Below the pieces are notes generated by a model. The model was not told the DNA's origin. It ran no database searches and saw nothing but the letters and a program-made list of their open reading frames with translations. A DNA stretch of 64,000 nucleotides from a virus (lineage: Duplodnaviria > Heunggongvirae > Uroviricota > Caudoviricetes), in the IMG/VR virus record IMGVR_UViG_3300011187_000002. One strand, given 5' to 3'. The position numbers and the translations under genes were made by a program. Each line of letters starts with the position of its first letter. Positions within the stretch are counted from its first letter, which is position 1. This document shows, piece after piece, positions 17,442-64,000 of this stretch.

Positions 17442-17453
17442 GCGGTCCTCGAT

Positions 17454-49934: not shown

Positions 49935-50744
49935 TTACTTTAGAATGGGAAGGAGCGCCCCACGAAGCTCGGGCTTATTGTACGCAAGCCGAATAAGATC
50001 ATCGCGTAGTGCGCTTTCACGCTCTTTCTTGAGCTTGTCCTTGTATTTCTCGTTCATCGCCTCCCACTCCGCCGCTTCCTCGGGCGTCATGTTCTGCGTG
50101 GGATCGGCGGGGACACCTTCTTCGAATCGAGCTCGCCTGCGTGTGGCAGATTTCTTGACCTTCTTTTGGCAACTCACGCAGTATTTTGTCTGCTCGAGCA
50201 CCTTACCCTCACAGTGGGGGCACGTGAATGTGGATCCGTCGGCCTGCCGGTTTCGGCTCGACGCGTTCCTGTCGAAAAGACTCTCATCAAGGGCCTCAAG
50301 GAGTTCGGTGCGCCAGTTTTTGAGATAGTCGACGAACCCAGCTTCAAGATCCGCATAGGACTCATCCCGATAGGCGGGATCCTGTTTCGCGCTGTACGCC
50401 AACTCCTCAGCGATGGCCCCGTAATTTCTACGATCAAGATCCTTGAGGGTTTCCTTTCTCAGATCCCAAGCCCAGGTGAGGAATCCAGGGATGTGCTGAC
50501 TGCTGCCGTAATTTTCGGTGTACCCTTGGTTCCAACCGGCCAAGTGGTCCTCGGCGTCGGAGGTGTCGAAGGCAAAGCGGCGTCTGTGCGTTTCGGTGCG
50601 TCTCATAGCGTAACCCTCGTGGGGGAATTCTGCGATTTTGAAGGTGTCTTTGTTGCCCGCATCCCGGAGAAGGGGCACGAGGTCCTCTCGGATCTCAGGA
50701 TTGTCATAGGCGAGCTTGATGATGGCTTTGCGTAGATCAGTCAT
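49935..50744 (-). CDS. zinc-ribbon protein with N- and C-terminal copies of the 'LAY..PELR..L.PIL' head module
   Basis: 269 aa; N-terminal MTDLRKAIIKLAYDNPEIREDLVPLLRDA, C-terminal DDLIRLAYNKPELRGALLPILK, central CPHC...CVSC. Confidence 0.55.
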   Translation of the reverse strand: MTDLRKAIIKLAYDNPEIREDLVPLLRDAGNKDTFKIAEFPHEGYAMRRTETHRRRFAFDTSDAEDHLAGWNQGYTENYGSSQHIPGFLTWAWDLRKETLKDLDRRNYGAIAEELAYSAKQDPAYRDESYADLEAGFVDYLKNWRTELLEALDESLFDRNASSRNRQADGSTFTCPHCEGKVLEQTKYCVSCQKKVKKSATRRRARFEEGVPADPTQNMTPEEAAEWEAMNEKYKDKLKKERESALRDDLIRLAYNKPELRGALLPILK

Positions 50745-50783
50745 AACAGGGCACCTTCTAGTGTCTAAAAATTACAAGTTGAG

Positions 50784-50801: not shown

Positions 50802-50811
50802 TTGCATCCGT

Positions 50812-53800
50812 TTACAGTGAGTTCGCGCTTCCGATCGTGTACGTGATCGGGATGTACTTCAAGGGGAAGATCGGTGCGTAAAAAGCACTGACTCGAAGTA
50901 CGGTCGGATCGTTAGGATCCGGCTCGGCACGAACACCCTTGAAGTCTACAATGATCTGCTGCTCCATAAGGGTGTTAAGTAGTCCCGAAAGGGCCAACTC
51001 TACATCCTGCGCCCGGCTGGTGAGGAACTTCAAACCGATGAAACGGTCCAAGCTCTTGCGTGCCTGTTGCTGGACGTGATCCTTAATAGCGACAATCGAA
51101 GGCGTTGACGTGAACCGGTTGGTAACGTCGGTGGTTAGACCGTCACGTACCTGTAGGAACGATCCTCGATCTTCGAGGACTGTAACACCACCGACAGCAA
51201 GCTGGTTCTTTTCGATCTCATCAAGCGATCGGTTAAGGCGTCTGAAACCGACAAGGCGACGTCGTGTTAACGGGGTTGCAACATCGAACTGCGGACTTAC
51301 CAGAACACCGGCAAGTGCCGCCGCTACATACGTTCCGTCGACGATGAAACTCTCATCTTCCCCAAGCTCGTTCGTCAGTGTGACGATTGCGCTATCGGGG
51401 TATACGAGAATCGACCGTCCGCTCTTGAGGCTCTTCGCGATGTTAGCCGCGTCTTCAGGACGAGTGCCCGAAGCAACACCGAAGATGCACCGGCGTTCCT
51501 GACGGAAACGCTGGCTCGACTGGATCTCGGAGTGGTTAACATAGGCACCCATAACATCCGGGTCCGTCGTAAGAGGGACCAAAAGATCAGGGGTAATGCC
51601 CGAAGCCAGCGGCTTTTTAAGCTCTTCCAAAGCGTCCATGAACGCCGCTGTAGGAGCTTGACTGAAGCCGGGGGTCTTTAGTACCTGCTTGCACCCGACG
51701 ATGACCGCACCGTTCAACACAGCGAGGTATGACGCCAAAGTAAGCGGGTTCTCAGCGGACAGCTTGCCGTAATTGCGCTGAATGTCCCGGAACCGAGTGA
51801 ACAGACGGGTTGAGAAATCCGTCTTTTCGTATTCGTAAGAGATATAGTAGAAATCTCCGATTCCCGGCTCGGCACCTGACTTGTTGTAAGTCGTTACTAC
51901 CGCCGTATCACCTACTCCGATATCCGTCGTGTTGTCCACCCGAACTTCAGTGCCCGGAACGGCCTTGACGACTTTGCTGAATCCCGTAGTGAAAGTATCC
52001 GACACATTCAGTGTGAAAGACTGTCCGTCCGTATAATCGCCGGTACCAGCCTCCAAAATCGTGAACCGAAGTCCCGTGTTGGAATCCTGATACGTTTGAC
52101 CAACCACACCTTCGCCGGTTGAGCCGTTGGTAGCCGAAGAGGCCACATCGAACCCATCCCGTGCATCTGTTCCCGCAACCGAATCACCGGCTTCGATCCC
52201 AATGCCCGTATCGTTAAGTGCCGAATCCGTTCCGGTACCAAACGTGAAGGATGCTGTGGAACCTTCCGCGAATGTAGTCAAGCGGAGGTAAGTCCCTTCG
52301 CCCGGCTTTACAAACGTATCAGCAAAGGCCGATGCAATGTACTCGGTAGCAGCCGTTGGGCTGTACCAATCCGAGGCTTGACTGTTCAGAACAGCAGCGA
52401 TCTCGTGGGCTTCAACACGTCGTTGCGAGGCACTATCACCTTCGCTGAATCCAACGTACTGGTTAGCTGTTCCGGCACGAACCTCAATGCGACTCTGGTT
52501 CGTGTCCAAGTTGGAAGTGATGCGGATCTTGTCCGTATCTTCTACGGCCACCGTGGCATCTGTGAGGGCTGCATCCAAAGCGGTCTGGATTGCGCTTACC
52601 GAGGCTAGGCTCGATAGATCCACCGTATGCTCAGTGCCATTTACCGCTACAACAAAGTCTGCGGTAGAAGCGCTATTAAGGGAAGCAAGGTCTGAGGCCG
52701 AGATCGCACCACTAAGAAGCGTAGCTCCTTTGTTAACAGCTTTCTCGGTGCCCTCGGCATACTGGAAGTCAGTGAAACCGAGAGTCCCGTTAGCGTTGCC
52801 GTCCTGCACCCTGATATGGGATGCATCTGCAGGTCCCGAAGGAGACACTTTCGATCGAAGGAGGAAACGCTCATCATCAGCACCCGAATCCCGGTAGCTC
52901 GCTACCAGAATGTTCTCATGCGAATCACCGTTGGTGAAACCAAGGACCGGGTTGGCTGTGCCTGTACCAATCGTAAGGCTTTCAGAAGCCAAGAGTTGGA
53001 CTTTACCCGAACCATCATCAACCGCATGTCCGTCGTTGCCAACAACTGCCGGATCACCTACCGTAAGATTTGCGTTGGTGATCTCGGTGTTAATCAACGT
53101 AGCTAATTGTGCAGCCGTTTGACCTGTCAATGTTCCAAAATCAACATTAACGGGGGTACCGTTCATGTCAAAATCGAAAAGATCATCGGACGCATCGGTG
53201 AATGCAAAGCTCTCCGTTGATGTACCAGTAATAGTAGCATCAGTCGGTACCGACCGCCAGATATCTTCGGCAATGTCAGCACCTGTTCGGCCCAACCCTG
53301 CTGTAAGAGTGACGCTATAGTCCGTACCGTCTACTTCAAACTCAAATACGTCGTTTTCGGTAGCAACGATGTCGTAAGTCGAACCATCGTCATGTCCGTC
53401 AGAAACGGTCACACCGAAAGCAGACTGGTTAAGGTCTACCGTTAGGCTGTTACCGTCTACATCCACATACAAGGTGTCAGACGCATCCGCATAGAGCGAA
53501 TACGGGTCAGCCGCGTAATTCGTGAATACAGCAGGCTCGGCCCCGATCTCTTTGAACGTCACCGTCACGGTTTCGTCCACACCATCAGCGCCCGCAATGA
53601 ATGCGTCCGGGTTAGTTTCCACACCGGAAGGCCACTGGATCGTTTCGTTAACTCCGGTGGTACCGAAATCAACCCCGAAAAGCTGCTCGCCTCTGCGGGA
53701 ACTGTAAACGCTATACTGGCCGGGTGTCGTAGCCGTCGACTGGCTCAAGACTTCGAAGGTTAGTTCATCATCCTGAAGCTGGTTGTACCAATACGTTGCC

Positions 53801-55365
53801 CACACCGTGTGACTCGGCGGAATAGCATCTTCAACCGTCACTTTACGGGTTTCAGGATCAACGTCCACAACCCCTACCGGGCCATTAGCCATCGCCTCGG
53901 ATAGATTGTCTCCGTGGTATACTTTAACAAGATCGGCCCGGTGCGTGCTCACGCCTACCCGGCTGTTCGATACATTGCCAAAGAGCTTCGAGTCTAGAGA
54001 CGTGCTCCGTCCGTTACCCGTCGTAGGTACATTACCTAGTAGGACAGTCGTGTCGGAGGTCACAGCCGGGCTGACCGAACGATCTACAAATCGGCTGGTC
54101 TCTTCGAAATACATCCGGTTATCAACCAGCGATGCACTGATCTGAGTCTCGTCGAAAAACTCCGTGCCTGCCGTATGCAGGCCAGATTCGATCGTTGCCG
54201 CCGAACCCCAGAGAAGTCGACCGTTCTCGTCAACTACGTAATCGTTACCCTCGATATAATCGGTGCGTCCGGGGCTGATACCAACCTGTTGGACTTTCCG
54301 AATTCCCGTATTGGGGAGGTAATCGAAAGTGTCTTGCCACGTGTTGTGGAAATACTCAACGGAAACGACGGCCCCTACAATCGGAGCCTGCTTGAGCGTG
54401 ACCGCTCCGTTAGTTCCATCAACCTCTTCGGGCACTACTTGGTTGCCGTCTACCTTGACCACAACATCGGAAGGATCCGTCGTGATGATCCCGCCGTTAT
54501 CGCCCGTAACAATCGGAGCCTGATAGACGTAAAAGGTACGGTTGCGCGTGGTTTTTTGACCAGCACCAAAACCAAGAACCGAGTTAGCTGTTCCCGAAAG
54601 GATCTCAATCGACCCTTGGGCTTCCAACTGAATTCGGTTATTGCCTTCGTTGTCCGCAGCTACACTGGCGGTAAGACCTACAATGCCCGCAGCGTTAATG
54701 TCGTTGACCACATTGTTGGCGCTCTGAGTCGCACCTGTCGTGAGGGTCACACTTGCGTCTGCACCGTCCACGTTGAGATTCAGGACGTTAGCCCCGGATA
54801 GAATCTCATAGTCTTCGACTTGCGACGAAAGGAGGATTGCGGACTCTTCAGCCACCTGACCCGAAAGGTCATCGGTGAACTTCGTGTCGGTACGGTTGAA
54901 GAAATACGTAACACGCACATCTTCACCGGTCTGTGGCGGCACTTGCAAGGTGATAACACCCCGCGCACCGTCTACAGCAGCAGGCGACACGAGATCGCCA
55001 TCTACGGTTACTGTGATATCGGAAGTATCACTCGTCACTAACCCTTGCCCATTACCCGATACAATCGGATAATTCTGGACACGAAACTTGACTTCACTGC
55101 CAGTCTTCGCACCCAAAACAGGGTTATCAGGGTTAGCATTGTCGAGGATGAACCTGTCGTTCACGTCCTCATTGACAATACGTTGATCTACCGATGCCGA
55201 AGAACCACGCACCAGCTCAAAGTCGTCTTGGGATAGAGTCTCCCGACCGACACCAATAAGAACCGGAATCCGGTTCCCCGTTGGAGGGCCTGACGAACCT
55301 TGCTGAGTTTGTGTTTTTGTGTATACTCCGGGTGGAGCGTAACTATCGAATGGTCCAAATGCCAC
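50812..55365 (-). CDS. tail sheath-like structural protein with multiple inserted repeat domains
   Basis: ORF-track GTG start trimmed to second GTG with TGAGG Shine-Dalgarno; N-terminal MAFGPFDSYAPPGVYTKTQ resembles sheath ...PGVY..E start; C-terminal ...VLRVSAFYAPIFPLKYIPITYTIGS; about 60-aa repeats (VTLT.G...A..I...IN...... GTAN.VLGF) recur at least 5 times. Confidence 0.5.
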   Translation of the reverse strand: MAFGPFDSYAPPGVYTKTQTQQGSSGPPTGNRIPVLIGVGRETLSQDDFELVRGSSASVDQRIVNEDVNDRFILDNANPDNPVLGAKTGSEVKFRVQNYPIVSGNGQGLVTSDTSDITVTVDGDLVSPAAVDGARGVITLQVPPQTGEDVRVTYFFNRTDTKFTDDLSGQVAEESAILLSSQVEDYEILSGANVLNLNVDGADASVTLTTGATQSANNVVNDINAAGIVGLTASVAADNEGNNRIQLEAQGSIEILSGTANSVLGFGAGQKTTRNRTFYVYQAPIVTGDNGGIITTDPSDVVVKVDGNQVVPEEVDGTNGAVTLKQAPIVGAVVSVEYFHNTWQDTFDYLPNTGIRKVQQVGISPGRTDYIEGNDYVVDENGRLLWGSAATIESGLHTAGTEFFDETQISASLVDNRMYFEETSRFVDRSVSPAVTSDTTVLLGNVPTTGNGRSTSLDSKLFGNVSNSRVGVSTHRADLVKVYHGDNLSEAMANGPVGVVDVDPETRKVTVEDAIPPSHTVWATYWYNQLQDDELTFEVLSQSTATTPGQYSVYSSRRGEQLFGVDFGTTGVNETIQWPSGVETNPDAFIAGADGVDETVTVTFKEIGAEPAVFTNYAADPYSLYADASDTLYVDVDGNSLTVDLNQSAFGVTVSDGHDDGSTYDIVATENDVFEFEVDGTDYSVTLTAGLGRTGADIAEDIWRSVPTDATITGTSTESFAFTDASDDLFDFDMNGTPVNVDFGTLTGQTAAQLATLINTEITNANLTVGDPAVVGNDGHAVDDGSGKVQLLASESLTIGTGTANPVLGFTNGDSHENILVASYRDSGADDERFLLRSKVSPSGPADASHIRVQDGNANGTLGFTDFQYAEGTEKAVNKGATLLSGAISASDLASLNSASTADFVVAVNGTEHTVDLSSLASVSAIQTALDAALTDATVAVEDTDKIRITSNLDTNQSRIEVRAGTANQYVGFSEGDSASQRRVEAHEIAAVLNSQASDWYSPTAATEYIASAFADTFVKPGEGTYLRLTTFAEGSTASFTFGTGTDSALNDTGIGIEAGDSVAGTDARDGFDVASSATNGSTGEGVVGQTYQDSNTGLRFTILEAGTGDYTDGQSFTLNVSDTFTTGFSKVVKAVPGTEVRVDNTTDIGVGDTAVVTTYNKSGAEPGIGDFYYISYEYEKTDFSTRLFTRFRDIQRNYGKLSAENPLTLASYLAVLNGAVIVGCKQVLKTPGFSQAPTAAFMDALEELKKPLASGITPDLLVPLTTDPDVMGAYVNHSEIQSSQRFRQERRCIFGVASGTRPEDAANIAKSLKSGRSILVYPDSAIVTLTNELGEDESFIVDGTYVAAALAGVLVSPQFDVATPLTRRRLVGFRRLNRSLDEIEKNQLAVGGVTVLEDRGSFLQVRDGLTTDVTNRFTSTPSIVAIKDHVQQQARKSLDRFIGLKFLTSRAQDVELALSGLLNTLMEQQIIVDFKGVRAEPDPNDPTVLRVSAFYAPIFPLKYIPITYTIGSANSL

Positions 55366-55437
55366 GACGAACCTCACTTATCGCTTAAATGATATGCGAT
55401 CAACCACTGAAGGCAAATATCAATAAAATACCGGGCG

Positions 55438-55875
55438 TCACTGATCAGACGATTCCGATTCACGTTTCTTGTGCTCTCGGATTACCCGATCATTCTCTTT
55501 ATGAAGACGCTGGAACCGTTGCACGTCCTTGTTGGGCATCGGTTCGTAATTGCCTTCCGAGTTGAGACGAAGCGGTACTTGACCTTCGTCTCCGTATTCT
55601 CGTTGAACTTTTCTTTTTCGACTAGTGCGATCCTTAACGTGTTCCCACCTAACTTCCGCATCCCGACCAATTCGCTTATCATGATCTCGGTCAAGCGAAT
55701 CAACCCCGGTGTTTCCCGGAACTTTTCCGTCTCCGAAAGCAAAACCAAAGTCAGAAATCAACCGTTCAGCCTCGGCCCCACAAGAGGAGCACGAAAGCGT
55801 TTTGGGGGGCTCTTTTCTAAAGAGCTTTTCTTGGCGGAGTCCGCAAGAATCACAACCATACTCAAATACTGCCAT
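55438..55875 (-). CDS. FmdB-family zinc-ribbon protein
   Basis: MAVFEYGCDSCGLRQEKLFRK...LSCSSCGAEAERL matches MP.YEYRC..CG..FE.....CP.CG. Confidence 0.55.
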   Translation of the reverse strand: MAVFEYGCDSCGLRQEKLFRKEPPKTLSCSSCGAEAERLISDFGFAFGDGKVPGNTGVDSLDRDHDKRIGRDAEVRWEHVKDRTSRKRKVQREYGDEGQVPLRLNSEGNYEPMPNKDVQRFQRLHKENDRVIREHKKRESESSDQ

Positions 55876-55912
55876 AAGGACCCTCTACTAACCGATACGG
55901 TATATAAACACT

Positions 55913-57709
55913 TTAGCGGATCTTCTCTAAATCACCCTTGGAATCTACCACGTATACCAAACCGAACCCGTTGAGGTTGTTTTCCCCACGTGAGTCCATG
56001 TTATCGGGCCTTTCAAGAAGGATCCCATCGTCAGCTACGGCCCCTCTTGCATCTTGATCAAAGGATTCTGGAGTGATTCTCTTAATAAAGAGCGGCTTCG
56101 CTATGTAAATCTCCCAATCGGTCATAAGGGAAAGTGAGATATTGGCGAGGTAGTAATAGTCGTCACCCGTATCGTCATAAGGCTCTTCGGACTCGCCACC
56201 AAACGACACACTGTTCAGGATGAGGCCCTCTTCGGCCAACCGTTCACGTCGCCATTGCCAGAGGTACATAACTACAAGATCAGCCAACTCGCCCCGCGTC
56301 ATTGAATCACGAGCAATGATATCGAAATCAATCGACATATCGATCTTGCCCCCATACACATCCGCCACATCCGAACGTTTCTCTTCGACAACGACGGCCA
56401 TCGCATCACCGCCCTCTAGCTCTTTTCCGAAAGCCAAAACGACGCCGGGGATCGCTTCATTATTCGAAACCTCCCCGCCACCAATATAATAAGGCCCCCG
56501 AGAAGCAACGGGATAACGATAGTCCGCAATGACCTGTGTTCCCGGCGTAAAGGAACGAAGGAAAGTTATTTCGCCAGTGGAAGCGTCAAGAGTGTAATCC
56601 CCTGCGTCTTCCGTACCCACTGCAAGCGAAGTCACAGCGAACCCGTTCTCAAGCTCTAAGGCAATATCTTCAACGGGGCGTGTGCCTTCCCTCAGATCGT
56701 ATTCGATAGCCGTACCATCCACTTCCAGACGAATGGTGGAACCCTTCGGCACATGGGGCTGAACCATGAGGCCCGTTACTTCCGGTGCTACATACCCGGA
56801 GGTAAAACCAAGCGTTGGGTTGGCTGTGCTGGTTGCATCATCCTCGATGCGCAAACTCTGGGAGGCCGTGATCTCAACCGCATTTGAAACGACGTCTACC
56901 GAATAGAGCGTCCCGTCCAAACCCGTAGCTACGATAGCCGCTTCGATTTCATCCGCCACATCGGCTGCCCCAAAGTTGCCCGCCGTCAGTGTTACGGAGA
57001 CAGACATGCCGTTGATCTCGAAAGCAAAGACGTCGTTGGAACCGCTGATAATCGTGTAGGGCTGTGTATTCGATCCCTTAACCGACACTGGCACATAGCC
57101 TTCGTCGAACCCGAAAAGGATGTTCGTGTTTCCGCCGCCGATGTACAGCGATTGGGCCGCTGTAAGGCGTAGGGCTTTCCCTGTGTGGAGCAAATGGTCG
57201 GGGTAAGCATAGAGGCGGACGCTACCCTCCAGCACCGGAGCATACGCTAGGATAGCCGACGTCTCGGTTCCGGTTTGAAACTCAATGATCGGTTCCTCTA
57301 GAACCGAAAGGAGGGGGTCCACCCAAAACTGAAATTCAGGTACATCACCCGTTGGGGTAATGTCTTCGATCTGGACATAATAGACGCCCGGCTCGGAGGG
57401 GAAATTACCACCATACTCTTCGACGGCGGCAGTGTCCTCACGTACCCATTCAAGGGCGGTACCCCGGTGGTCGTCTACTTTAGCCAACATGATGTACGAA
57501 TACATCGTGCCGATGTAATTGTCGGCGGCCAGTGACATGGGGTTGGCGCTGGCGCTCTGTAGAACGATCCCCTTCTGGGGACGCTCTGAAAACTCATACT
57601 TTTCCCGAATGTGCTTGACAACATCCCGATGCCGTGGGTTTGCATCGAAGCAAAACCTGAGCGTCTCCATAAGACGCTTTTTCACGGCACGTGATAGATA
57701 GTGATACAT
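55913..57709 (-). CDS. virion structural protein sharing repeat modules with the sheath-like protein
   Basis: 598 aa; repeats FEINGMSVSVTLTAGNFGAADVADEIEAAI... and ...TANPTLGFTSGYV as in sheath gene. Confidence 0.5.
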   Translation of the reverse strand: MYHYLSRAVKKRLMETLRFCFDANPRHRDVVKHIREKYEFSERPQKGIVLQSASANPMSLAADNYIGTMYSYIMLAKVDDHRGTALEWVREDTAAVEEYGGNFPSEPGVYYVQIEDITPTGDVPEFQFWVDPLLSVLEEPIIEFQTGTETSAILAYAPVLEGSVRLYAYPDHLLHTGKALRLTAAQSLYIGGGNTNILFGFDEGYVPVSVKGSNTQPYTIISGSNDVFAFEINGMSVSVTLTAGNFGAADVADEIEAAIVATGLDGTLYSVDVVSNAVEITASQSLRIEDDATSTANPTLGFTSGYVAPEVTGLMVQPHVPKGSTIRLEVDGTAIEYDLREGTRPVEDIALELENGFAVTSLAVGTEDAGDYTLDASTGEITFLRSFTPGTQVIADYRYPVASRGPYYIGGGEVSNNEAIPGVVLAFGKELEGGDAMAVVVEEKRSDVADVYGGKIDMSIDFDIIARDSMTRGELADLVVMYLWQWRRERLAEEGLILNSVSFGGESEEPYDDTGDDYYYLANISLSLMTDWEIYIAKPLFIKRITPESFDQDARGAVADDGILLERPDNMDSRGENNLNGFGLVYVVDSKGDLEKIR

Positions 57710-57759
57710 AGCACATCGGCAATATTAGGGTGTCCATTAACTGCCCCCACGAATTCGCT

Positions 57760-58185
57760 TTAAGCTACGAAATCATGGAGATCGTACATCTGGATGATAT
57801 CTTCCACCGCTTTCTCAAGGAGGCGCTTGTCAAGGCCCTGTGCGAACTCGTCAGCCAATTTATCGGTGTCCCGGAAATGGCGTTCAAATTTGCGCAAAAG
57901 AGTACCCGCCCGATCACGAGACTCGACCTCTACGGGAAGATCCCACATACGGGCGATTTGTTCGAACTGCTCACGACTTTCACGGTCCCCCACGTATCCC
58001 ATCAAATTGCTGAGAGCTTCTGTGGCACCGAGCATTTCCCGGACTTGCGACCACTTGCCCCACGGCCCTGATCGGTAGGCTTCACGGGTATTACTTTCCA
58101 GTGCCTTGAGGATAGGTTGGAGGTGTGTGCGAAGCCCCTTTTTCTTGTTCCCCAACTTGATCAACTGGTCTTTAAGGTCGGTCAT
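57760..58185 (-). CDS. hypothetical protein, 'DLKDQLIKLG' head-module paralog
   Basis: 141 aa; MTDLKDQLIKLGNKKKGLRTHLQPILKALE. Confidence 0.5.
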   Translation of the reverse strand: MTDLKDQLIKLGNKKKGLRTHLQPILKALESNTREAYRSGPWGKWSQVREMLGATEALSNLMGYVGDRESREQFEQIARMWDLPVEVESRDRAGTLLRKFERHFRDTDKLADEFAQGLDKRLLEKAVEDIIQMYDLHDFVA

Positions 58186-58215
58186 AAGATACTCTCACAC
58201 GGTTAGAGGGATTAA

Positions 58216-60489
58216 TTAAACATATTCTTGCATGGATTGGACCAACAGTCCCTGAGCCACGGAGGTCATGGGGTCGTCGGCTTGTCGAATTTCACTGATC
58301 TCAATTGGAAAACGCTTGCGCTGTTTTTCGAATACTTCCTTGAACAAGTCGAGGAATCCACCGGCCAACGATGTTCCCCCGGACACGATGATGGGGATAG
58401 CTTCTTTGAGTTCCGTGTCATTCTGTGTGTTCTTGAACTGCTTGCCGATATTGTCGAGGGCGTATTTGATCAGTGACTTGTAATAGACAACCAGCGCTTC
58501 CTCTTCGCGGCTTTGAGGGTTCGTGAGGTCTATCCCTTTCTCTTTGATGGAACAGAGGCGGGAAGCGGTCGAACCCACAGCCTTCGAAGCGTTCTGGTCA
58601 ATCCAGTCGCCGCAGTTGTGTACGACAGCACCCCACGTCGCGAAAGCATGATGGGATTCTCCAATGGAAATATCATACACATCATCGTCATAGGGGATAG
58701 TCTCAACGGAAAGCACTTTCCTTTCCGCAAAATGCCCAGAGGGGTACCGCAAAGAGTTGCCCTCCTTGGAAATAAGGGCTCCCAACACGGAAACCGCTAC
58801 CGCATCTCTGATACGAACTGTGTAAGAATCCTTACGGCCCTCGATCTGAACTCCTCTTGAGTTTACACCACCTTGCCTTGGATCTCGTTTCTCGATTGTA
58901 TGCCAGATGCCAAATCTATTCAGAAGGTGACTCATGCTGCGGACAAGAGTCTCAGACGTGTTATAAAACTCGAAACCTTTTTCCGTCCGTGACCCGTCAC
59001 TATCTAATAGACCCTCTAGTACCCCTACTGCCATCTGATCGGGAATTTCGTGTACAGGAAGCGGGAGGATCTTATCCCCCACCCCATTATAACATTTACT
59101 CTTGAGATGGTCTGCAATCTTATGGTATTCAAGGTTGATAAGATCCATTTCAACCTCAGTCCTAGACACCACAGATGGAAACCGACCAAAGAGGTCGTTA
59201 ATAACATCTTGGTATTTCTGGACCAGTTGTGCATCCTTCCGGTTAAACGCCAAACGAACTCGACCCCCAGAATTGCCCTGTCCGTTCTTATAAAGACAGG
59301 TGCTGCCATCCCCTAAGAACATCCCCAAAAATCTACCCAAGTTGCGAGACTTCGTAACCGTGACATTTTGACCATCTTCCCGGCAAAAATAGTACGAGCT
59401 GTGGTTCCCACGGTAGGGGATACGAGGTACCCCTACGATGTCCCCCTCCCGAGCATCCTGTGCTGCTACCCACTCCCACTGAGCGCCACGGCGAACACTA
59501 ATTTTGTGATCACCTGTAACATCAACCGGTGCAAAGGGCAGACCTTCTAGTTGGAGTTGATAAAGTTCTTCACGATGCCCGTTGTTAAATACTTCTAGGA
59601 CTTCGGTATATGCTCCGTCCTGACCTAATACCAAGTCACCGGGTCGGATTCCCGAAACTGGTTTCATACCAGAAGGCGTATCAATCGGGAAATCTTTAGA
59701 CAGGCATCGGGCCAACGAAAACTCCATGATCGGCATGGTCATGTACGAAAGGGCGCAGTTGACCATCCCGGAACCGAAGCTAATGCCGATTCCGCTAAAA
59801 TTGTCGCTAGCGCATTCCGAATAAATGATCGCCATCGCCTCGTTGCCCGAAATAGGGTCGTATCCTAGCTCGTCGAGGATCTTTGCGAACACAGCCTCGT
59901 GGTACACGACGTCTTGACCCGGCATATCCAGAGGGGCTGCAGGGATCGAATAGTAGCAAACTTCACCCTCCTCTTGGGGCTTGCCTACCACCTGTTCGAT
60001 CAAAATCGACAGGACTTCGAGCGCATCAATTTCCGAAGAGGAAATCAGACCCTGTGACAAGGGACGCCGAGCTTCCCGCTTAAACAGGTTGGCTGTTTCG
60101 ATTGCGGGGTCGCCCAAAATCAGAATGCGATCATCATATTCGATGAAACTAACACCCGACAGCTTGAGCATCTTCTTGGCGTCGATATCGAGGTCAAGGA
60201 AAGCATCACGCACACGTTTCGTCTCAACCGACGTACCGATCTTACGAGCGGACACAAGGTTCATCGTACCAATGTCCAACCCGATACCCATCTCTGGCTT
60301 TTTATCTTCACTCATATCGTCACTCCGATTTTCACTTGACTCCAAAGGTTTATCCAAACCGTACTCCTTTGCCCGTTTACTAATCGTGGATGCGCTGCAC
60401 CCATACTTGTCGGCAATATCAGCATACGACAAACCGGCTTCGAGGTGATATCGAAGGTCGTCACGTGGTATGTCTATGCGCTTTGCCAT
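58216..60489 (-). CDS. actin-like (MreB/ParM-fold) ATPase with N-terminal HTH, interrupted by an intein
   Basis: phosphate-1 MGIGLDIGTMNLVSAR, phosphate-2 GIGISFGSGMVNCAL, adenosine motif PIIVSGGTSLAGGFLDLF; N-terminal HTH LSYADIADKYGCSASTISKRAKEYGL; 364-aa intein inside. Confidence 0.65.
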   Translation of the reverse strand: MAKRIDIPRDDLRYHLEAGLSYADIADKYGCSASTISKRAKEYGLDKPLESSENRSDDMSEDKKPEMGIGLDIGTMNLVSARKIGTSVETKRVRDAFLDLDIDAKKMLKLSGVSFIEYDDRILILGDPAIETANLFKREARRPLSQGLISSSEIDALEVLSILIEQVVGKPQEEGEVCYYSIPAAPLDMPGQDVVYHEAVFAKILDELGYDPISGNEAMAIIYSECASDNFSGIGISFGSGMVNCALSYMTMPIMEFSLARCLSKDFPIDTPSGMKPVSGIRPGDLVLGQDGAYTEVLEVFNNGHREELYQLQLEGLPFAPVDVTGDHKISVRRGAQWEWVAAQDAREGDIVGVPRIPYRGNHSSYYFCREDGQNVTVTKSRNLGRFLGMFLGDGSTCLYKNGQGNSGGRVRLAFNRKDAQLVQKYQDVINDLFGRFPSVVSRTEVEMDLINLEYHKIADHLKSKCYNGVGDKILPLPVHEIPDQMAVGVLEGLLDSDGSRTEKGFEFYNTSETLVRSMSHLLNRFGIWHTIEKRDPRQGGVNSRGVQIEGRKDSYTVRIRDAVAVSVLGALISKEGNSLRYPSGHFAERKVLSVETIPYDDDVYDISIGESHHAFATWGAVVHNCGDWIDQNASKAVGSTASRLCSIKEKGIDLTNPQSREEEALVVYYKSLIKYALDNIGKQFKNTQNDTELKEAIPIIVSGGTSLAGGFLDLFKEVFEKQRKRFPIEISEIRQADDPMTSVAQGLLVQSMQEYV
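58615..59706 (-). mobile_element. intein with LAGLIDADG homing-endonuclease domain (aa 262-625 of host protein)
   Basis: starts C (FSLAR|CLSKDFPIDT), block B VTGDHKIS, LAGLIDADG blocks LGMFLGDGS and GLLDSDGS, ends GAVVHN|C. Confidence 0.7.
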
Positions 60490-60495
60490 GATTGG

Positions 60496-60867
60496 TTAAA
60501 AGTTGACCGGGGTCTTGATACCTAGAAGGTCCGCAATCTTAGCTACCTGATTGCGCAACATGTTCGCATCGCTAGGCGGGCGTCCCAGCATATTGTTGAG
60601 CCTGTTGAACGCTTTCTCTTCGCCACCGTCCAACTGAAGCCGATCGGAAAAATGCTTAAAAATGTCTTTGAGCATATCCGCCGTCTGTTCATCCCCACCC
60701 TTACGAGCCTGTGATCTGAGCTTCCCAGAAGCGCGGAGATCCACGATATCCCGCATCAGATTGAGTTTGGATGTTCGCTGTAGTTCGGCCAAAACCGGAC
60801 GGATATGTGGGCGAAGTTCCGGGTTGGTGGACCCGAGGCGAATGAGTTGATCTTTAAGGTCTGCCAT
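60496..60867 (-). CDS. hypothetical protein, 'DLKDQLIKLG' head-module paralog
   Basis: 123 aa; MADLKDQLIRLGSTNPELRPHIRPVLAELQ. Confidence 0.5.
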   Translation of the reverse strand: MADLKDQLIRLGSTNPELRPHIRPVLAELQRTSKLNLMRDIVDLRASGKLRSQARKGGDEQTADMLKDIFKHFSDRLQLDGGEEKAFNRLNNMLGRPPSDANMLRNQVAKIADLLGIKTPVNF

Positions 60868-60935
60868 CGGCGCAGCTCCGTATATGATTTAGGTACAGAT
60901 AGGCGTCACAGTAAACGGAGCATATAAGTAGATTC

Positions 60936-62369
60936 TCACCGCTTGCGATACAGAACCTTGACTGCTTCGGTAAGGTTCCGAGGGCTTTTCCGCAGGCCCG
61001 GCTGCCGAAGCAAAACGTCGCGAGCCACTTCCATGAGGTTGCGGATTTCCCGGCCTTGGAGGTCAAATTCACCAATCAACGCTTGGGTATCCATCTGGCG
61101 GCCCGGCTGTTTCAGGAGGTCAACGAACTTGTCCGCCTCCCGTGCTTCCATCTCTAGGGCAACCGTGCGCAACCGGGCCATCTGAGCGTCGTCTAGGAAA
61201 CGAAGCCGTGTGTTCAACGGGAGGCCGATATCCATCATGTCGAAAAGGAACAGGACCTTCGCATCCCGACCCGCCCAATTCACAAGGGTTTTACGGAAAG
61301 GCTTATTGCTTTCGAGCATCTCTTTGACCACATCGAGCAGGCCCAGATTCTTGAGCACTTTCAGGGTGGTCTTCGACTGGCTCATCTGTAAAATGTCATT
61401 GACGAGGATCTCGCTAATGGCATTTTGCGGGGCCTTCTTGAGCTTATCAGCGTTTCGACGAATAGCCTTGGCGACAGGTGGATCAATCTTGAAGCCGTAC
61501 TTGACCAAGAACTTCACCGCCCGCAACATCCGGGTGGGGTCATCCGAAAATGTCTTGTCCGGGTCGCTAGGACACTTCATAACGCCTTCTTGAAGGTCAT
61601 CCACGCCACAACCCGTGAGGTCAATAATCTCTGCCTTATCCGGCCCGTGAGCAAGCTCTGAGAGCTGCCACAGCAACGTATTGAACGTGAACTCACGCCG
61701 TTTGATATCCTCTTCGATAGTCGAAGGCTCTACCATGTGTGGCTTGTATCCTTTCCCCTCGTCACCGCCGTAGGACTCTTTGCGGGCATTGGCGATTTCG
61801 ATAACTTCGCCTTGGAGGTCCGCGCCGTCCACTACCCACGATTCATTGACGGACAGGATAGCTACGCCGTACTGATTCGTCTGGAGGCTGGTCTTAGCCG
61901 GAATCGCCCCCTGTAACTTCTTGGCGAACCATGCCGAGTCCTTTCCCCCAAGCGCTACCGAATCTATCACGACGTCGATATCTTTGATGGGCCGGTCGAT
62001 GATGAAATTGCGCACAGCACCGCCTACTACATATACGTGTTCCCCAACCCCTAGCCGCTTGGCGACTTTGGATAGAAACCGCATCAGGGCGATCGACTGT
62101 TCATGTGCTTGTTCGGAAATCACGGTACGTCTCGAAGCTAAACGGGTCTGTTCCCGGTAAAAGAACGACCCATCACGGAACGTTAAATCACCCATGTTAA
62201 CGAGGGATTCGATAATATCCCCCATCAGGTCAGGTGCATCGGTCATAGCTTCTACCAAATCATCATATTGGTTGAAAGCCTGTTCCATAACATTCGATGC
62301 GGTACGATTACGTCCCGAGGCTAGAGATAGGAGGTAGCGTCGTGCGACCTTTTTAGATAGATCAATCAT
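60936..62369 (-). CDS. class II tRNA nucleotidyltransferase (CCA-adding enzyme / poly(A) polymerase family)
   Basis: 477 aa; motif A VYVVGGAVRNFIIDRPIKDIDVVI, motif B DIKRREFTFNTL. Confidence 0.7.
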   Translation of the reverse strand: MIDLSKKVARRYLLSLASGRNRTASNVMEQAFNQYDDLVEAMTDAPDLMGDIIESLVNMGDLTFRDGSFFYREQTRLASRRTVISEQAHEQSIALMRFLSKVAKRLGVGEHVYVVGGAVRNFIIDRPIKDIDVVIDSVALGGKDSAWFAKKLQGAIPAKTSLQTNQYGVAILSVNESWVVDGADLQGEVIEIANARKESYGGDEGKGYKPHMVEPSTIEEDIKRREFTFNTLLWQLSELAHGPDKAEIIDLTGCGVDDLQEGVMKCPSDPDKTFSDDPTRMLRAVKFLVKYGFKIDPPVAKAIRRNADKLKKAPQNAISEILVNDILQMSQSKTTLKVLKNLGLLDVVKEMLESNKPFRKTLVNWAGRDAKVLFLFDMMDIGLPLNTRLRFLDDAQMARLRTVALEMEAREADKFVDLLKQPGRQMDTQALIGEFDLQGREIRNLMEVARDVLLRQPGLRKSPRNLTEAVKVLYRKR

Positions 62370-63060
62370 CGCTATCCTCCTGTTTCTTCTTACCTTTCTT
62401 AGACCCCCGGAGCGCTTTGAGTGCTTCGGCGGCTTTATTTAATTGGTCACTACCCTCTTTGGCTTCGGACTGAATTTCGACCGCCGAAGAGGTTTTGGCT
62501 TTTCCCGACCGAATTTTCGACGGGATGAACGTAGGAGTGTCATCCACAACACCACTATCCGAAGTCGGTACGGGCGCTGTGCCTGTGGAGGGTACACCTT
62601 CGATCTTGATGGGGCGTTCCATGTACTCGGAAAACTTTTCCATCATAAGCTGTTGCTGTTGCATGAGCTTTTCAAGATTGCCCCGCAGCTTTGCGTTCTC
62701 TTCGAGGGTTTGCTCAAGCATCTTTTCCGACTTGGAGTCGGACTTTTTATCGTCAGTGGCGGAAACCTTCTTGGTAGTAGTGGAAGGCGGAGGTGCAGGT
62801 GCGGGTGTCGTGTGTTTTTGGACGGGCTTCGACCGAGGTTTAGACTTTTTAGGTACAGGCGAAGCCGTATTAAGGTCATGCCCGCTGATTACCTTCTTCT
62901 TGACTACCAAACCCTGTTGGAGGGCATGGTTAAGATCACGGCTCCAGTTGGCACGCTCGTAGTTGAGGACCTCTTCCTTCTGGTACGCCACATCCAACCC
63001 CAAATCTTGGATTGTATGTCCCCCGAGGACGCGCCCTTCTATGACGAGAAACTTTTCCAC
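62362..63060 (-). CDS. hypothetical protein (coiled coil, Lys/Pro-rich linker)
   Basis: 232-aa ORF. Confidence 0.5.
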   Translation of the reverse strand: MEKFLVIEGRVLGGHTIQDLGLDVAYQKEEVLNYERANWSRDLNHALQQGLVVKKKVISGHDLNTASPVPKKSKPRSKPVQKHTTPAPAPPPSTTTKKVSATDDKKSDSKSEKMLEQTLEENAKLRGNLEKLMQQQQLMMEKFSEYMERPIKIEGVPSTGTAPVPTSDSGVVDDTPTFIPSKIRSGKAKTSSAVEIQSEAKEGSDQLNKAAEALKALRGSKKGKKKQEDSDD

Positions 63061-63072
63061 TCAACACCTCTG

Positions 63073-63579
63073 TTACTTGCCTTGCAACCGGCTCTTGATG
63101 CGATCTTTAATGCTCTGGGCAATACGTTCCTTGACCTTTTCACGGGCCTTTTCTACGCCCCGCTCAATGAAATTCTTTCCCTTGATTCCGGGGTGCTGCC
63201 ATTTGCCCTCTTGCATGGATTTCGGTGTGGCACTACGGAAAATCACGTCGCCCTCATCCGTGAGGATAGGGATCGGCTTATCCGATTTCGACAAATAAGT
63301 CATCTGGTGCGCTTTGACCCCTTTGTCGAGATACTTTGCAGCCGGGTGGTCGGACTCCAGTACCAAGGTACTTTTGCCTTCGACCCGATAACTGAACGAA
63401 TCCAGAAGATCCTTGGGCTGCCCTTTGAAAGACGTGCGCCGGATCTCTTTCTGGACCGCTTTGATCGCCTCCTTGCCCGTCTCTTCAAGCAAATCGGAAC
63501 GGTCCTCATCGTCTTTGAGGGGTGTCCCTTTGACGAGGGGTTTACCGTATACGCCTCTGAGTCTGTATTTACCGGCCAT
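63073..63579 (-). CDS. hypothetical protein
   Basis: 168-aa ORF. Confidence 0.5.
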   Translation of the reverse strand: MAGKYRLRGVYGKPLVKGTPLKDDEDRSDLLEETGKEAIKAVQKEIRRTSFKGQPKDLLDSFSYRVEGKSTLVLESDHPAAKYLDKGVKAHQMTYLSKSDKPIPILTDEGDVIFRSATPKSMQEGKWQHPGIKGKNFIERGVEKAREKVKERIAQSIKDRIKSRLQGK

Positions 63580-63805
63580 AGGTCTTTAAGATGGCTTTAG
63601 ACGCCCAACGGTTACGGGCAGCGGTACGCTCCCGAACCGTGCCCACACATTTCGCATGGGCCTCCTGCTGGTTGATGAAAATGCGATACAATGGTCCCTT
63701 AACTTTGGAACTCACCCGAACCTTTAGCCGCACACCGTCTTCGGCAGCAACACGTTCGAGCCGTTCACTGCCCAGAAGTTTTGAGTTGTGATCTCGCAAT
63801 GTCAT
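63569..63805 (-). CDS. hypothetical protein
   Basis: 78-aa ORF. Confidence 0.4.
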   Translation of the reverse strand: MTLRDHNSKLLGSERLERVAAEDGVRLKVRVSSKVKGPLYRIFINQQEAHAKCVGTVRERTAARNRWASKAILKTYGR

Positions 63806-63965
63806 AGTCCACGCATTTGAGTGACGACAGTAGTTCAGCGTTCGCTTCGATCTCTATATCAACGGGATGTACCCATTTTTCGGTATCCAACCCGTCGCTC
63901 ATAACCGAAATGATCTTAGTGCCATGTGCGGTATAAGGTGAAATCGTCTGTAACAGTTGGCCCAT
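63765..63965 (-). CDS. hypothetical protein
   Basis: 66-aa ORF near window end. Confidence 0.35.
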   Translation of the reverse strand: MGQLLQTISPYTAHGTKIISVMSDGLDTEKWVHPVDIEIEANAELLSSLKCVDYDIARSQLKTSGQ

Positions 63966-64000
63966 GCTATCCGCAAATTGACGGAAACCTAGATCTAAAA

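What the first reader, a model, noticed from the sequence alone, without database searches (positions are those of the whole stretch)
58615..59706. LAGLIDADG intein splitting an actin-like ATPase that carries an N-terminal HTH
The 757-aa ORF (58216..60489) reads as an actin/MreB/ParM-fold protein. It has the phosphate-1 motif GIGLDIGTMNLVSAR and the phosphate-2 motif GIGISFGSGMVNCAL. It also has the adenosine motif IIVSGGTSLAGGFLDLF. Right after phosphate-2 it is interrupted by a 364-aa element with canonical intein ends (…FSLAR|C LSKDFPIDT … GAVVHN|C GDW). The element contains a TxxH block and two LAGLIDADG blocks (LGMFLGDGS, GLLDSDGS). The 393-aa extein additionally begins with a sigma-70-region-4-like HTH (LSYADIADKYGCSASTISKRAKEYGL). 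A DNA-binding head fused to an actin-like filament protein is unusual and suggests a DNA-positioning or segregation cytomotive protein. Inteins usually target replication enzymes, not cytoskeletal ATPases. The gene is bracketed by two paralogous small genes.
Basis: partly seen in the sequence, partly recalled or inferred. Interest (0 to 1): 0.75.

Follow-up and report, generated by a model that had tools for sequence, protein, structure and literature searches.

The report
Intein-split, DNA-binding actin of a jumbo phage
A giant bacteriophage carries its own actin-like filament protein with a DNA-binding head, and the gene is interrupted by a self-splicing, recently mobile intein; it belongs to a large group of phage actins that I found described in no paper I could search.

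Summary
With residues 262-625 removed (window 58615..59706), the 393-aa extein matches Pfam Volactin end to end (260.9 bits, cutoff 35). It models as an actin fold (pLDDT 90; best PDB matches MamK, MreB, BeeR, actin), preceded by a three-helix HTH and a disordered linker.

The insert is a class-1 intein with a two-motif LAGLIDADG endonuclease. It sits exactly between ...EFSLAR and GGDWID of 12 intein-less homologues.

It is 1092/1092 nt identical in a sister phage whose N-extein is only 75% identical. This points to very recent homing.

The host is a jumbo myophage (contig up to 231 kb). The actin family occurs on 496 IMG/VR contigs and forms a clade separate from its closest cellular relatives, mostly Planctomycetota.

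At least 34 other family representatives carry inteins, at this site or inside phosphate-2. An intein here is therefore recurrent, not unique.

The HTH fusion is limited to one subclade. It retains an internal Shine-Dalgarno-like element plus ATG in 7/7 lineages, suggesting HTH-tagged and untagged isoforms.

The "paralogous" flanking genes share only a ~30-aa N-terminal motif. A DNA-organising filament function is inferred, not shown.

The parts
58216..60489 (-). Precursor gene: 757 codons plus stop. Encodes HTH, linker, actin N-part, intein and actin C-part.
   Evidence: ORF list and translation. The exact protein is on public contigs up to 230,823 bp.
60352..60489 (-). N-terminal helix-turn-helix domain, aa 1-46 (helices 9-17, 22-29, 33-43).
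   Evidence: AF2 pLDDT 92-96. Sub-threshold HTH_23, Sigma70_r4 and HTH_38 hits, and phrog_664 'DNA binding protein' at 1.3e-5. Conserved in 7 lineages; pN 0.27-0.35 against pS about 0.8.
60292..60351 (-). Acidic disordered linker, aa 47-66. Contains a conserved internal start: GGAG at 60323-60326 and the ATG of Met59 at 60313-60315.
   Evidence: pLDDT <50 for aa 49-60. An SD-like element at the right spacing occurs in 7/7 HTH-bearing lineages, against 0.07 background in the same linkers.
59707..60291 (-). N-extein actin core, aa 67-261. Includes phosphate-1 (60244-60288) and phosphate-2 (59749-59793).
   Evidence: Pfam Volactin profile positions 1-196. Alignment A1/A2 invariant D72, G74, T75, S237, G239, G241.
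58615..59706 (-). Class-1 intein, 364 aa, with an embedded LAGLIDADG homing endonuclease. Landmarks: Cys1 (59704-59706), block B TGDH (59506-59517), LAGLIDADG-1 (59302-59328), LAGLIDADG-2 (58990-59013), block F (58642-58680), terminal His-Asn (58615-58620).
   Evidence: Pfam. PDB sequence hits to gp41-1 intein, I-DmoI and Pho RadA intein. Precursor model matches TliVMA intein at 1e-17, PI-SceI and PI-PfuI. GC3 0.46 against 0.59/0.63 in the exteins. 1092/1092 nt identical in L165.
58219..58614 (-). C-extein actin core, aa 626-757. Includes +1 Cys626 (58612-58614), the GDWID motif and the adenosine motif (58342-58392).
   Evidence: Volactin profile positions to 319/321 once spliced. Homologues have G or S where Cys626 sits.
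60496..60867 (-). Upstream small gene (123 aa) headed by the motif MADLKDQLIRLGSTNPELRPHIRPVLAEL.
   Evidence: No Pfam, PHROG or NCBIfam hit. Motif HMM 8.9e-17. Syntenic gene present in L001/L002.
57760..58185 (-). Downstream small gene (141 aa) headed by the same ~30-aa motif.
   Evidence: 50% identical orthologue directly after the actin gene in L001-L004. Motif HMM 6.7e-14.
49935..50744 (-). 269-aa ORF carrying the same motif at both its N- and C-terminus. It may belong to the same module.
   Evidence: Motif HMM 4.6e-13 and 4.7e-11.

Best explanation
This is the actin-like gene of an uncultured jumbo myophage, interrupted by a selfish but splicing-competent intein.

Shown:
- The gene encodes an 84-kDa precursor.
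- Residues 262-625 have every sequence and fold hallmark of a class-1 Hint intein carrying a two-motif LAGLIDADG endonuclease.
- The intein lies in the loop between the last strand of the phosphate-2 sheet and the following GGDWID helix, a stretch that is near-invariant across the family.

Inferred from established intein chemistry:
- Cys262 forms a thioester.
- The N-extein is transferred to Cys626.
- Asn625 cyclises.
- R261 is ligated to C626.
- This releases a 43.4-kDa HTH-actin protein and a 40.6-kDa endonuclease.
- The unspliced precursor should be inactive, because the nucleotide cleft is split.

Inferred from comparative data:
- The endonuclease cuts intein-less alleles of co-infecting related phages at the conserved ...CGx|GGxGGxGACTGGAT... 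site, and repair copies the intein in.
- This happened very recently between this phage and a sister phage.

Inferred by homology to volactin, MamK, MreB and ParM:
- The mature protein binds ATP and polymerises into dynamic filaments.
- The N-terminal HTH, on a flexible ~20-residue acidic tether, couples the polymer to DNA. The phage would then organise or position its own DNA with an actin filament, without a separate ParR/AlpA-type adaptor.
- A conserved internal ribosome-binding site and ATG (Met59) probably also yields an untagged 335-aa subunit. Filaments would then be copolymers in which only some subunits carry a DNA-binding head.

My probabilities for each step:
- intein identity: 0.97
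- actin-family identity: 0.97
- recent homing: 0.9
- HTH is a functional DNA binder: 0.7
- two isoforms: 0.5
- DNA-organising filament role: 0.35-0.4

The overall confidence given (0.7) refers to the account as a whole, identity plus splicing/homing mechanism; the functional role is the least certain part.
For: Extein:
- Pfam Volactin 260.9 bits, profile 1-319/321.
- AF2 pLDDT 90.1.
- Foldseek: MamK 3.4e-14, then MreB, BeeR, actin, crenactin.

Intein:
- Pfam hits and PDB sequence hits.
- Precursor model matches TliVMA, PI-SceI and PI-PfuI inteins and I-DmoI.
- Exact in-frame insertion relative to 12 homologues.
- C1, T-x-x-H, both LAGLIDADG Asp residues, a conserved Lys, block F and HN are all conserved across 10 inteins at the same site.
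- Foreign composition: GC3 0.46 vs 0.59-0.63.

Homing:
- 0 mismatches in 1092 nt, plus a 101-nt identical 3' flank, between the window and L165.
- The N-extein is 75% identical and the C-extein 88%.
- The nearest 5' mismatch is 4 nt from the junction.
- Inteins at the same site occur in divergent family members.

Phage context:
- Tail sheath, Lon, GyrB, GroEL, CCA-adding enzyme and 6 tRNAs.
- Synteny with the intein-less relative L001.
- 496 IMG/VR contigs carry a relative.
- Clean viral vs cellular split in an NJ tree.

HTH:
- In-frame fusion kept in 7 lineages with divergent linkers.
- pN far below pS.

Internal start:
- SD plus ATG in 7/7 lineages, against 0.07 background.

Precedent:
- Volactin forms dynamic filaments in vivo (PMC10869688).
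- Prophage actin AlpC with its DNA adaptor supports viral DNA replication (PMC4446434).
Against: - No experiment here. Splicing, endonuclease activity, polymerisation and DNA binding are all inferred.
- The HTH matches no Pfam model above its gathering score.
- Most phage members of the family (about 335 aa) lack any HTH. The core role of the phage actin therefore cannot depend on a fused DNA-binding head.
- In the sister phage L165 the HTH is a separate ORF, split from the actin by an endonuclease gene.
- No iterated centromere-like repeats lie within 57-63.5 kb.
- The gene sits between neck/tail-completion and tail-sheath genes. This hints at a late, morphogenesis-linked role rather than genome segregation.
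- The family has Ser where MreB, ParM and actin have the phosphate-2 Asp. Its catalytic behaviour may therefore differ.
Confidence: 0.7

Rival explanations
1. The HTH is a regulatory head rather than a cargo tether. It would bind an operator and auto-repress the actin operon, as the N-terminal HTH of type Ia ParA proteins (P1 ParA, F SopA) does. The filament function would be independent of DNA.
For: The HTH is dispensable in most family members. No centromere-like repeat array lies nearby. The HTH diverges faster than the core: 35-59% identity against 60-81%. The ParA analogy comes from my own knowledge.
Against: The gene is tightly packed in a long co-directional gene string, with only 6 nt to the upstream gene. 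No obvious promoter or operator region lies in front of it. A stoichiometric fusion to a polymer-forming subunit is an odd design for a repressor.
Confidence: 0.2
2. The phage actin works in virion morphogenesis or in remodelling the infected cell. Examples would be organising assembly sites or altering host shape, possibly by interfering with a host homologue. Under this view the HTH is a lineage-specific add-on of minor importance.
For: The gene lies between a Neck1/tail-completion-like gene and the giant tail-sheath gene. The same placement next to the sheath gene is seen in LR745208. Most phage homologues have no DNA-binding domain. The closest cellular relatives are chromosomal genes of Planctomycetota, paired with a coiled-coil partner. 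That suggests a cytoskeletal rather than a segregation role.
Against: Gene order alone is weak evidence in jumbo phages. The HTH fusion is kept in frame and under purifying selection in 7 lineages. The phage clade is cleanly separated from the cellular clade, so mimicry of a particular host protein is not indicated.
Confidence: 0.2
3. The HTH is a relic of a mobile endonuclease gene that landed upstream and became fused by accident. It would have no role in actin function.
For: In L165 a Vsr/DUF559 plus NUMOD3 endonuclease gene sits exactly in the linker position. Its own N-terminal HTH weakly resembles the actin HTH (26% over 31 aa, pairwise E 0.003). PHROG and BFVD matches of the HTH include HNH endonuclease, invertase and resolvase HTH domains.
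Against: The open reading frame is maintained across 7 lineages whose linkers are no longer alignable. pN/pS is about 0.35-0.4. The similarity to the endonuclease HTH is marginal.
Confidence: 0.1
4. The protein is a non-polymerising ASKHA-fold ATPase (Hsp70-like, sugar-kinase-like or EutJ-like), not a cytomotive filament.
For: The phosphate-2 Asp is replaced by Ser in the whole family. The BFVD search returns mainly viral Hsp70 homologues. EutJ appears among the PDB matches.
Against: The best PDB matches are all filament formers: MamK, MreB/Mbl, BeeR, actin, crenactin. Pfam places it in the Volactin family with 260.9 bits, and the founding member of that family forms dynamic filaments in vivo (PMC10869688). 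There is no Hsp70 substrate-binding domain.
Confidence: 0.07
5. The intein is decayed, so the gene is effectively a pseudogene.
For: None specific. Splicing was not tested.
Against: All splice-junction and block residues are intact and the ORF is unbroken. The same sequence is maintained in two phages. The exteins remain highly conserved relative to intein-less homologues, at 81%.
Confidence: 0.03

Closest known systems
Volactin (HVO_2015) of Haloferax volcanii / Pfam PF25216
   Same: Same Pfam family at full length (260.9 bits). Actin fold, about 330-aa core. The founding member forms dynamically unstable filaments in vivo (PMC10869688).
   Different: This one is encoded by a jumbo phage, not an archaeon. 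It carries an N-terminal HTH and an intein. It belongs to a viral clade distinct from the closest cellular members, which are mostly Planctomycetota at 40-48% identity. I did not compare it directly with HVO_2015.
AlpC/AlpA of Corynebacterium glutamicum prophage CGP3, and plasmid ParM/ParR/parC
   Same: An actin-like ATPase encoded by a virus or plasmid and coupled to its DNA. This is the best functional precedent for a phage actin acting on viral DNA (PMC4446434).
   Different: Those systems use a separate adaptor protein and a centromere-like site. Here the DNA-binding module is fused to the actin itself. No adaptor homologue or repeat array was found. There is no detectable sequence similarity to ParM/AlpC families beyond the fold.
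PhuZ tubulin spindle of nucleus-forming jumbo phages
   Same: A cytoskeletal polymer encoded by jumbo phages and used to organise infection (PMC8314001, PMC7950403).
   Different: Different superfamily: tubulin rather than actin. No chimallin or PhuZ was seen in this 64-kb window, but most of the genome is outside it.
Type Ia ParA (P1 ParA, F SopA)
   Same: A partition ATPase with an N-terminal HTH (my own knowledge).
   Different: Walker-type ATPase, not actin fold. Its HTH serves auto-repression.
HE-associated class-1 inteins: PI-SceI, TliVMA/PhoVMA, PI-PfuI; I-DmoI-type LAGLIDADG domain
   Same: Hint splicing domain split by a two-motif LAGLIDADG endonuclease. Cys1, TxxH, HN and +1 Cys are present. 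Insertion is in a conserved nucleotide-binding region of an ATPase.
   Different: The host protein is an actin-family ATPase. My literature searches found no paper describing an intein in an actin-like protein. Closest intein relatives are 38-46% identical and all sit at the same site of the same family.

Membership tests
Pfam PF25216 Volactin (actin-like ATPase family) | Profile HMM score above the curated cutoff over the full domain | tested here: met
   260.9 bits against a cutoff of 35; profile 1-319 of 321 on the spliced extein.
Pfam PF25216 Volactin (actin-like ATPase family) | Actin/ASKHA fold with phosphate-1, phosphate-2 and adenosine motifs | tested here: met
   AF2 pLDDT 90.1. Foldseek MamK 3.4e-14, then MreB, BeeR, actin. 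Motifs are present and invariant in 43 homologues. The family has Ser instead of the usual phosphate-2 Asp.
Pfam PF25216 Volactin (actin-like ATPase family) | ATP-dependent dynamic filament formation | not testable with these tools
   Shown only for H. volcanii volactin (PMC10869688).
Class-1 intein | Cys/Ser at position 1, block B T-x-x-H, C-terminal His-Asn, and Cys/Ser/Thr at +1 | tested here: met
   C262, T325-G-D-H328, H624-N625, C626. All are conserved in 10 inteins at the same site.
Class-1 intein | Precise in-frame insertion relative to intein-less homologues | tested here: met
   Alignment A1: the gap spans exactly aa 262-625, between EFSLAR and (G/S)GDWID, in 12 homologues.
Class-1 intein | Hint fold | tested here: met
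   Intein_splicing 36.3 bits (cutoff 35.8). Precursor model matches TliVMA intein at 1e-17 and PI-SceI at 1.3e-16.
Class-1 intein | Protein splicing activity | not testable with these tools
   Needs expression and detection of the 43-kDa ligated product.
LAGLIDADG homing endonuclease (two-motif, monomeric) | Two LAGLIDADG helices, each ending in a catalytic acidic residue | tested here: met
   FLGMFLGDGS and LEGLLDSDGS. LAGLIDADG_3 2.6e-11. I-DmoI sequence and fold matches.
LAGLIDADG homing endonuclease (two-motif, monomeric) | Mobility by homing into the cognate intein-less site | tested here: met
   Indirect evidence only. The intein is 1092/1092 nt identical, with a 101-nt 3' co-conversion tract, between phages whose exteins are 75-88% identical. 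Cleavage itself was not tested.
ParMRC / AlpAC-type actin segregation module | A separate DNA-binding adaptor gene and an adjacent array of centromere-like repeats | tested here: not met
   Flanking genes have no hit in any HMM library. Only chance-level short repeats lie in 57000-63500.
Sigma-70 region 4 / HTH_23-type helix-turn-helix | Pfam score above the gathering cutoff | tested here: not met
   HTH_23 23.0 against 24.6 bits. Sigma70_r4 19.7 against 24.1 bits.
Sigma-70 region 4 / HTH_23-type helix-turn-helix | Three-helix bundle with a basic recognition helix | tested here: met
   Helices 9-17, 22-29 and 33-43 at pLDDT 92-96. The third helix is STISKRAKEYG. DNA binding was not tested.

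The most novel reading that the evidence does not exclude
Many jumbo and huge phages build their own actin cytoskeleton, a counterpart of the PhuZ tubulin spindle that I found in no paper I could search. In this subclade a nested gene pair would make HTH-tagged and untagged subunits that copolymerise. Filament dynamics would then be coupled directly to phage DNA without any adaptor. Intein splicing would add an obligatory post-translational maturation step.
Probability: 0.22. Interest if true: 0.85.

Novelty: new variant of a known kind. Interest (0 to 1): 0.66.

Why it matters
Phage-encoded cytoskeletons are currently known mainly as the PhuZ tubulin of nucleus-forming jumbo phages and a few ParM/AlpC-type actins of temperate elements.

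This locus opens onto a large, coherent clade of actin homologues on jumbo and huge phage contigs. There are 496 such contigs in IMG/VR, up to 618 kb. The literature I could search does not describe it.

The HTH fusion offers a direct, testable link between an actin polymer and DNA. The conserved internal start suggests a built-in way to set the ratio of DNA-binding to plain subunits.

For intein biology, this adds an actin-family ATPase as a recurrent intein host with two independent insertion sites, both in nucleotide-binding elements. It also provides a clear natural example of very recent homing between diverged phages.

In practice, the intein-less alleles supply a ready substrate for testing a new LAGLIDADG specificity. 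The spliced extein is a tractable candidate for filament structural work.

Tried and rejected
- Megablast of 50000-64000 against GenBank phages found nothing.
- tblastn of the extein found only two unannotated huge-phage records, LR745208 and LR756511. No cultured phage carries it.
- phmmer of the extein against PDB sequences gave nothing meaningful. Fold comparison was needed instead.
- The word-indexed search with the intein found only one relative. The exhaustive representative search found 1456.
- A repeat search for a parC-like site gave only chance-level repeats.
- I tested whether the phage flanking genes are related to the conserved upstream coiled-coil partner of the Planctomycetota homologues. 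There were no hits in any phage locus.
- NCBIfam adds nothing for the actin, the flanking genes or the motif.
- The database search with the flanking-gene motif returned only 88 tiny unannotated proteins and no informative domain fusions. The first attempt failed because the query was too short.
- BFVD has no close viral relative.
- The Uab amorphum 'actin-like protein' of a planctomycete is a different, eukaryote-like actin and is unrelated to this family.
- The dS estimate for the HTH is saturated, so only pN and pS are reported. The L168 row was misaligned and is ignored.
Full report
**Observation.** The ORF is real but lies on the minus strand. The complement of 58216..60489 encodes 757 aa, and the + strand frame is full of stops. 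Residues 262-625 (CLSKDF...AVVHN) map to window 58615..59706, exactly the finding's coordinates. Removing them leaves a 393-aa, 43.4-kDa protein.

**The extein.**
- The spliced sequence matches Pfam PF25216 'Volactin' over the whole profile (positions 1-319 of 321; 260.9 bits; cutoff 35; E 2.6e-77).
- In the unspliced protein the same profile splits into two stretches that end and resume at the intein borders.
- An AlphaFold model built on 43 homologues has mean pLDDT 90.1. It shows three N-terminal helices (9-17, 22-29, 33-43), a disordered stretch (49-60), then a complete actin fold.
- Foldseek against the PDB ranks filament-forming actin homologues first: MamK (3.4e-14), Mbl/MreB, BeeR, eukaryotic actin, crenactin.
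- Sequence-only comparison with PDB chains finds nothing. NCBIfam gives only a faint MamK hit. The family is therefore remote from the classical bacterial actins.
- Phosphate-1 (D72, G74, T75), phosphate-2 (S237, G239, G241) and the adenosine motif (G340-G341-T342-S343 in extein numbering) are invariant among homologues. The usual phosphate-2 Asp is Ser throughout the family.

**The intein.**
- The insert scores on LAGLIDADG_3 (2.6e-11) and Intein_splicing (36.3 bits, cutoff 35.8).
- Its N-terminal part resembles the gp41-1 intein, the centre resembles I-DmoI, and the C-terminus resembles the Pho RadA intein.
- A model of the whole precursor (pLDDT 85.8) finds endonuclease-bearing inteins as its best structural matches: TliVMA (1e-17), PI-SceI (1.3e-16), PhoVMA and PI-PfuI, followed by I-DmoI.
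- In an alignment with 12 intein-less homologues the insert is one clean gap between ...EFSLAR and (G/S)GDWID. The +1 residue is Cys here, and Gly or Ser in the others.
- In the model this is the loop between strand 252-259 and helix 263-274, immediately after the phosphate-2 sheet.
- Cys1, T-G-D-H, both LAGLIDADG Asp residues, a conserved Lys, block F and His-Asn are all conserved among ten inteins that occupy this site.
- The intein is compositionally foreign: GC3 0.46 against 0.59 and 0.63 in the exteins, with lower codon adaptation.

**Evidence for recent homing.**
- An IMG/VR contig from a sister phage (L165) carries the same intein with 0 mismatches in 1092 nt.
- Identity continues for 101 nt into the C-extein.
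- The aligned N-extein is only 75% identical, with the nearest mismatch 4 nt from the junction. The C-extein overall is 88% identical.
- This is the pattern expected from endonuclease-driven gene conversion with a one-sided co-conversion tract. It implies the endonuclease is, or very recently was, active.
- The DNA around the insertion point (GGxGGxGACTGGATxGA) is conserved across phage and even cellular homologues, which makes it a good homing target.
- One phage allele (L122) has Cys at +1 but no intein. This could be a footprint of precise loss.

**How unusual is an intein here?**
- An exhaustive HMMER search of 1.84 billion cluster representatives with the intein gave 1456 hits at E <= 1e-3.
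- Of the best 150, 34 are Volactin-family proteins.
  - At least 11 carry the intein at this same site; these inteins are 38-46% identical to the window's.
  - At least 18 carry a more distant intein (25-32% identical) at a second site inside the phosphate-2 loop (GIS|C...HN|CGxGMxN).
- None of those has the HTH.
- The combination seen here is therefore rare, but inteins in this actin family are recurrent.
- Literature searches on intein with actin-like or MreB found no description of such inteins.

**Genomic and evolutionary context.**
- The window is part of a jumbo myophage.
  - It carries a 1521-aa protein with a tail-sheath C-terminus, Lon protease, GyrB, GroEL, two nucleotidyltransferases including a CCA-adding enzyme, a Neck1-like gene and six tRNAs.
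  - The exact protein occurs on contigs up to 230,823 bp.
- The closest relative (P0001, 81% identical, no intein) sits in the same gene order: CCA enzyme, small gene, actin, small gene, ~590-aa gene, Zn-ribbon gene, giant sheath gene.
- The family has more than 2100 database members, mostly about 335 aa.
- It occurs on 496 IMG/VR contigs up to 618 kb.
- Among GenBank phages only two unannotated huge-phage records have it. BFVD holds no close relative.
- In species-representative genomes the nearest cellular homologues (40-48% identity) are almost all chromosomal genes of Planctomycetota, plus Desulfosarcina.
- A neighbour-joining tree separates all 84 viral sequences from all 70 cellular ones by a single branch.
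  - Five short contigs binned into unrelated MAGs fall on the viral side and are probably mis-binned phage DNA.
- The Planctomycetota genes have a conserved upstream acidic coiled-coil partner that is absent from phage loci.
- Neither the huge-phage survey nor the jumbo-phage cell-biology reviews mention actin homologues.

**The HTH head.**
- Only the closest subclade carries the N-terminal extension: P0001-P0010; L085-L088, L091, L166-L168.
- It hits HTH_23, Sigma70_r4 and HTH_38 just below Pfam thresholds, and phage 'DNA binding protein', invertase and small-terminase HTH families in PHROGs.
- It stays in frame in seven lineages whose linkers are no longer alignable. Non-synonymous divergence (0.27-0.35) is far below saturated synonymous divergence (about 0.8).
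- In all seven lineages an ATG lies 6-23 codons before the actin core and starts MS(E/D).../MT(E).... It is preceded at 6-9 nt by GGAG, GAGG or AAGGAG.
  - Such an element occurs at only 7% of other positions in the same linkers.
  - Starting there gives 335 aa, the length and N-terminus of the HTH-less homologues.
  - I infer that the ancestral start was kept and that both a tagged and an untagged subunit are probably made.
- In L165 the HTH is a separate 146-aa ORF. A 304-aa Vsr/DUF559 plus NUMOD3 endonuclease gene sits in the linker position. The actin (with intein) then starts afresh behind an AGGAG. The two modules can therefore be uncoupled.

**Flanking genes.**
- The 123-aa and 141-aa genes share only residues 1-34.
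- That segment is a ~27-aa motif, LRxxLIRLAxxxPELRPHLxPLL.
- It also occurs at both ends of ORF 49935-50744, in small co-directional genes near the actin gene in 22 viral loci, and in no cellular locus.
- A database search found 88 tiny unannotated proteins with it, some from marine samples.
- Its function is unknown. An actin-docking peptide is one speculative idea.

**Mechanism and rivals.**
- Shown: the domain identities, the insertion site, the intact catalytic residues and the homing signature.
- Inferred: splicing to a 43-kDa HTH-actin, ATP-dependent polymerisation, DNA binding by the head, and a role in organising phage DNA. For the last, prophage AlpC/AlpA is the precedent (PMC4446434) and volactin shows that this family polymerises (PMC10869688).
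- Against a segregation-type role: there is no adaptor, no repeat array, and most homologues lack the HTH. The gene also sits in the neck/tail morphogenesis region.
- Rivals, with my probabilities:
  - an autoregulatory HTH as in type Ia ParA: 0.2
  - a morphogenesis or host-remodelling role: 0.2
  - an HTH relic of a mobile endonuclease: 0.1
  - a non-polymerising ASKHA ATPase: 0.07
  - a dead intein: 0.03

**Verdict.** The finding is real and correctly read. It is a new variant of known kinds: a class-1 LAGLIDADG intein and a Volactin-family actin. Three features raise its interest:
- a large viral actin clade that I found described in no paper I could search;
- a fused DNA-binding head with a probable nested short isoform;
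- clear evidence of ongoing intein homing at one of two recurrent sites in an actin-family ATPase.

Noticed in passing
window 60313-60326 (minus strand); L001, L087, L091, L166, L167, L168: A conserved internal Shine-Dalgarno-like element plus ATG (Met59) lies in the HTH-actin linker in 7/7 HTH-bearing lineages. It would give a 335-aa HTH-less isoform the same size as ordinary family members.
   Followed up: yes
window 60496-60867, 57760-58185, 49935-50744 (all minus strand); 22 viral loci: A ~27-aa motif, LRxxLIRLAxxxPELRPHLxPLL, heads many small co-directional genes near the phage actin gene. It is absent from cellular loci, has no family annotation, and its function is unknown.
   Followed up: partly
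L165 1914-5491: In the sister phage the HTH is a separate 146-aa ORF. A Vsr/DUF559 plus NUMOD3 endonuclease gene (2419-3333) occupies the linker position ahead of the intein-containing actin gene. One gene has therefore been hit by two mobile elements.
   Followed up: partly
proteins P0141-P0170, P0274: A second, independent intein insertion site exists in the same actin family, inside the phosphate-2 loop (GIS|C...HN|CGxGMxN). It is found in at least 18 cluster representatives.
   Followed up: partly
L122, about 6600: An intein-less phage allele with Cys at the +1 position (ALAR|CGDWVD). This is a possible footprint of precise intein loss, or a pre-adapted site.
   Followed up: no
L010-L084 (Planctomycetota contigs), gene immediately upstream of the actin homologue: The closest cellular homologues are chromosomal genes of Planctomycetota. 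They are preceded, in at least 34 loci, by a conserved ~280-aa acidic coiled-coil gene. This looks like an uncharacterised two-gene cytoskeletal module. The partner is absent from phages.
   Followed up: partly
L005-L008 (MAGs labelled Thermoplasmata, Actinomycetota, Legionellales, uncultured bacterium): Short contigs in unrelated MAGs carry actin genes that fall inside the viral clade. They are probably phage contigs mis-binned into MAGs.
   Followed up: partly
L108 and L116 (IMGVR_UViG_3300025141_000016, 297 kb): Two copies of the phage actin gene, 81% identical, lie on one contig. They are either true paralogues or a chimeric assembly of two related phages.
   Followed up: no
window 50812-55377 (minus strand): A very large (1521-aa) protein in which only the C-terminal ~350 residues match tail sheath. 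Related giant sheath genes occur next to the actin gene in LR745208 and in Tunturiibacter phage Tunturi_5 (308 kb). Tunturi_5 gave no extein match at the E 1e-5 limit.
   Followed up: partly
window 13391-18330 and 60936-62369, 46858-47742 (minus strand): A cluster of six tRNA genes (Leu x2, Thr x2, His, Arg) occurs together with a CCA-adding-type nucleotidyltransferase and a second nucleotidyltransferase. Phage-encoded Lon protease (18743-21100) and GroEL (45200-46897) are also present.
   Followed up: no
window 41428-43407 (minus strand): A 659-aa phage protein with calcium-binding EGF-like domains (EGF_CA 5.8e-15), which is unusual in a bacteriophage.
   Followed up: no
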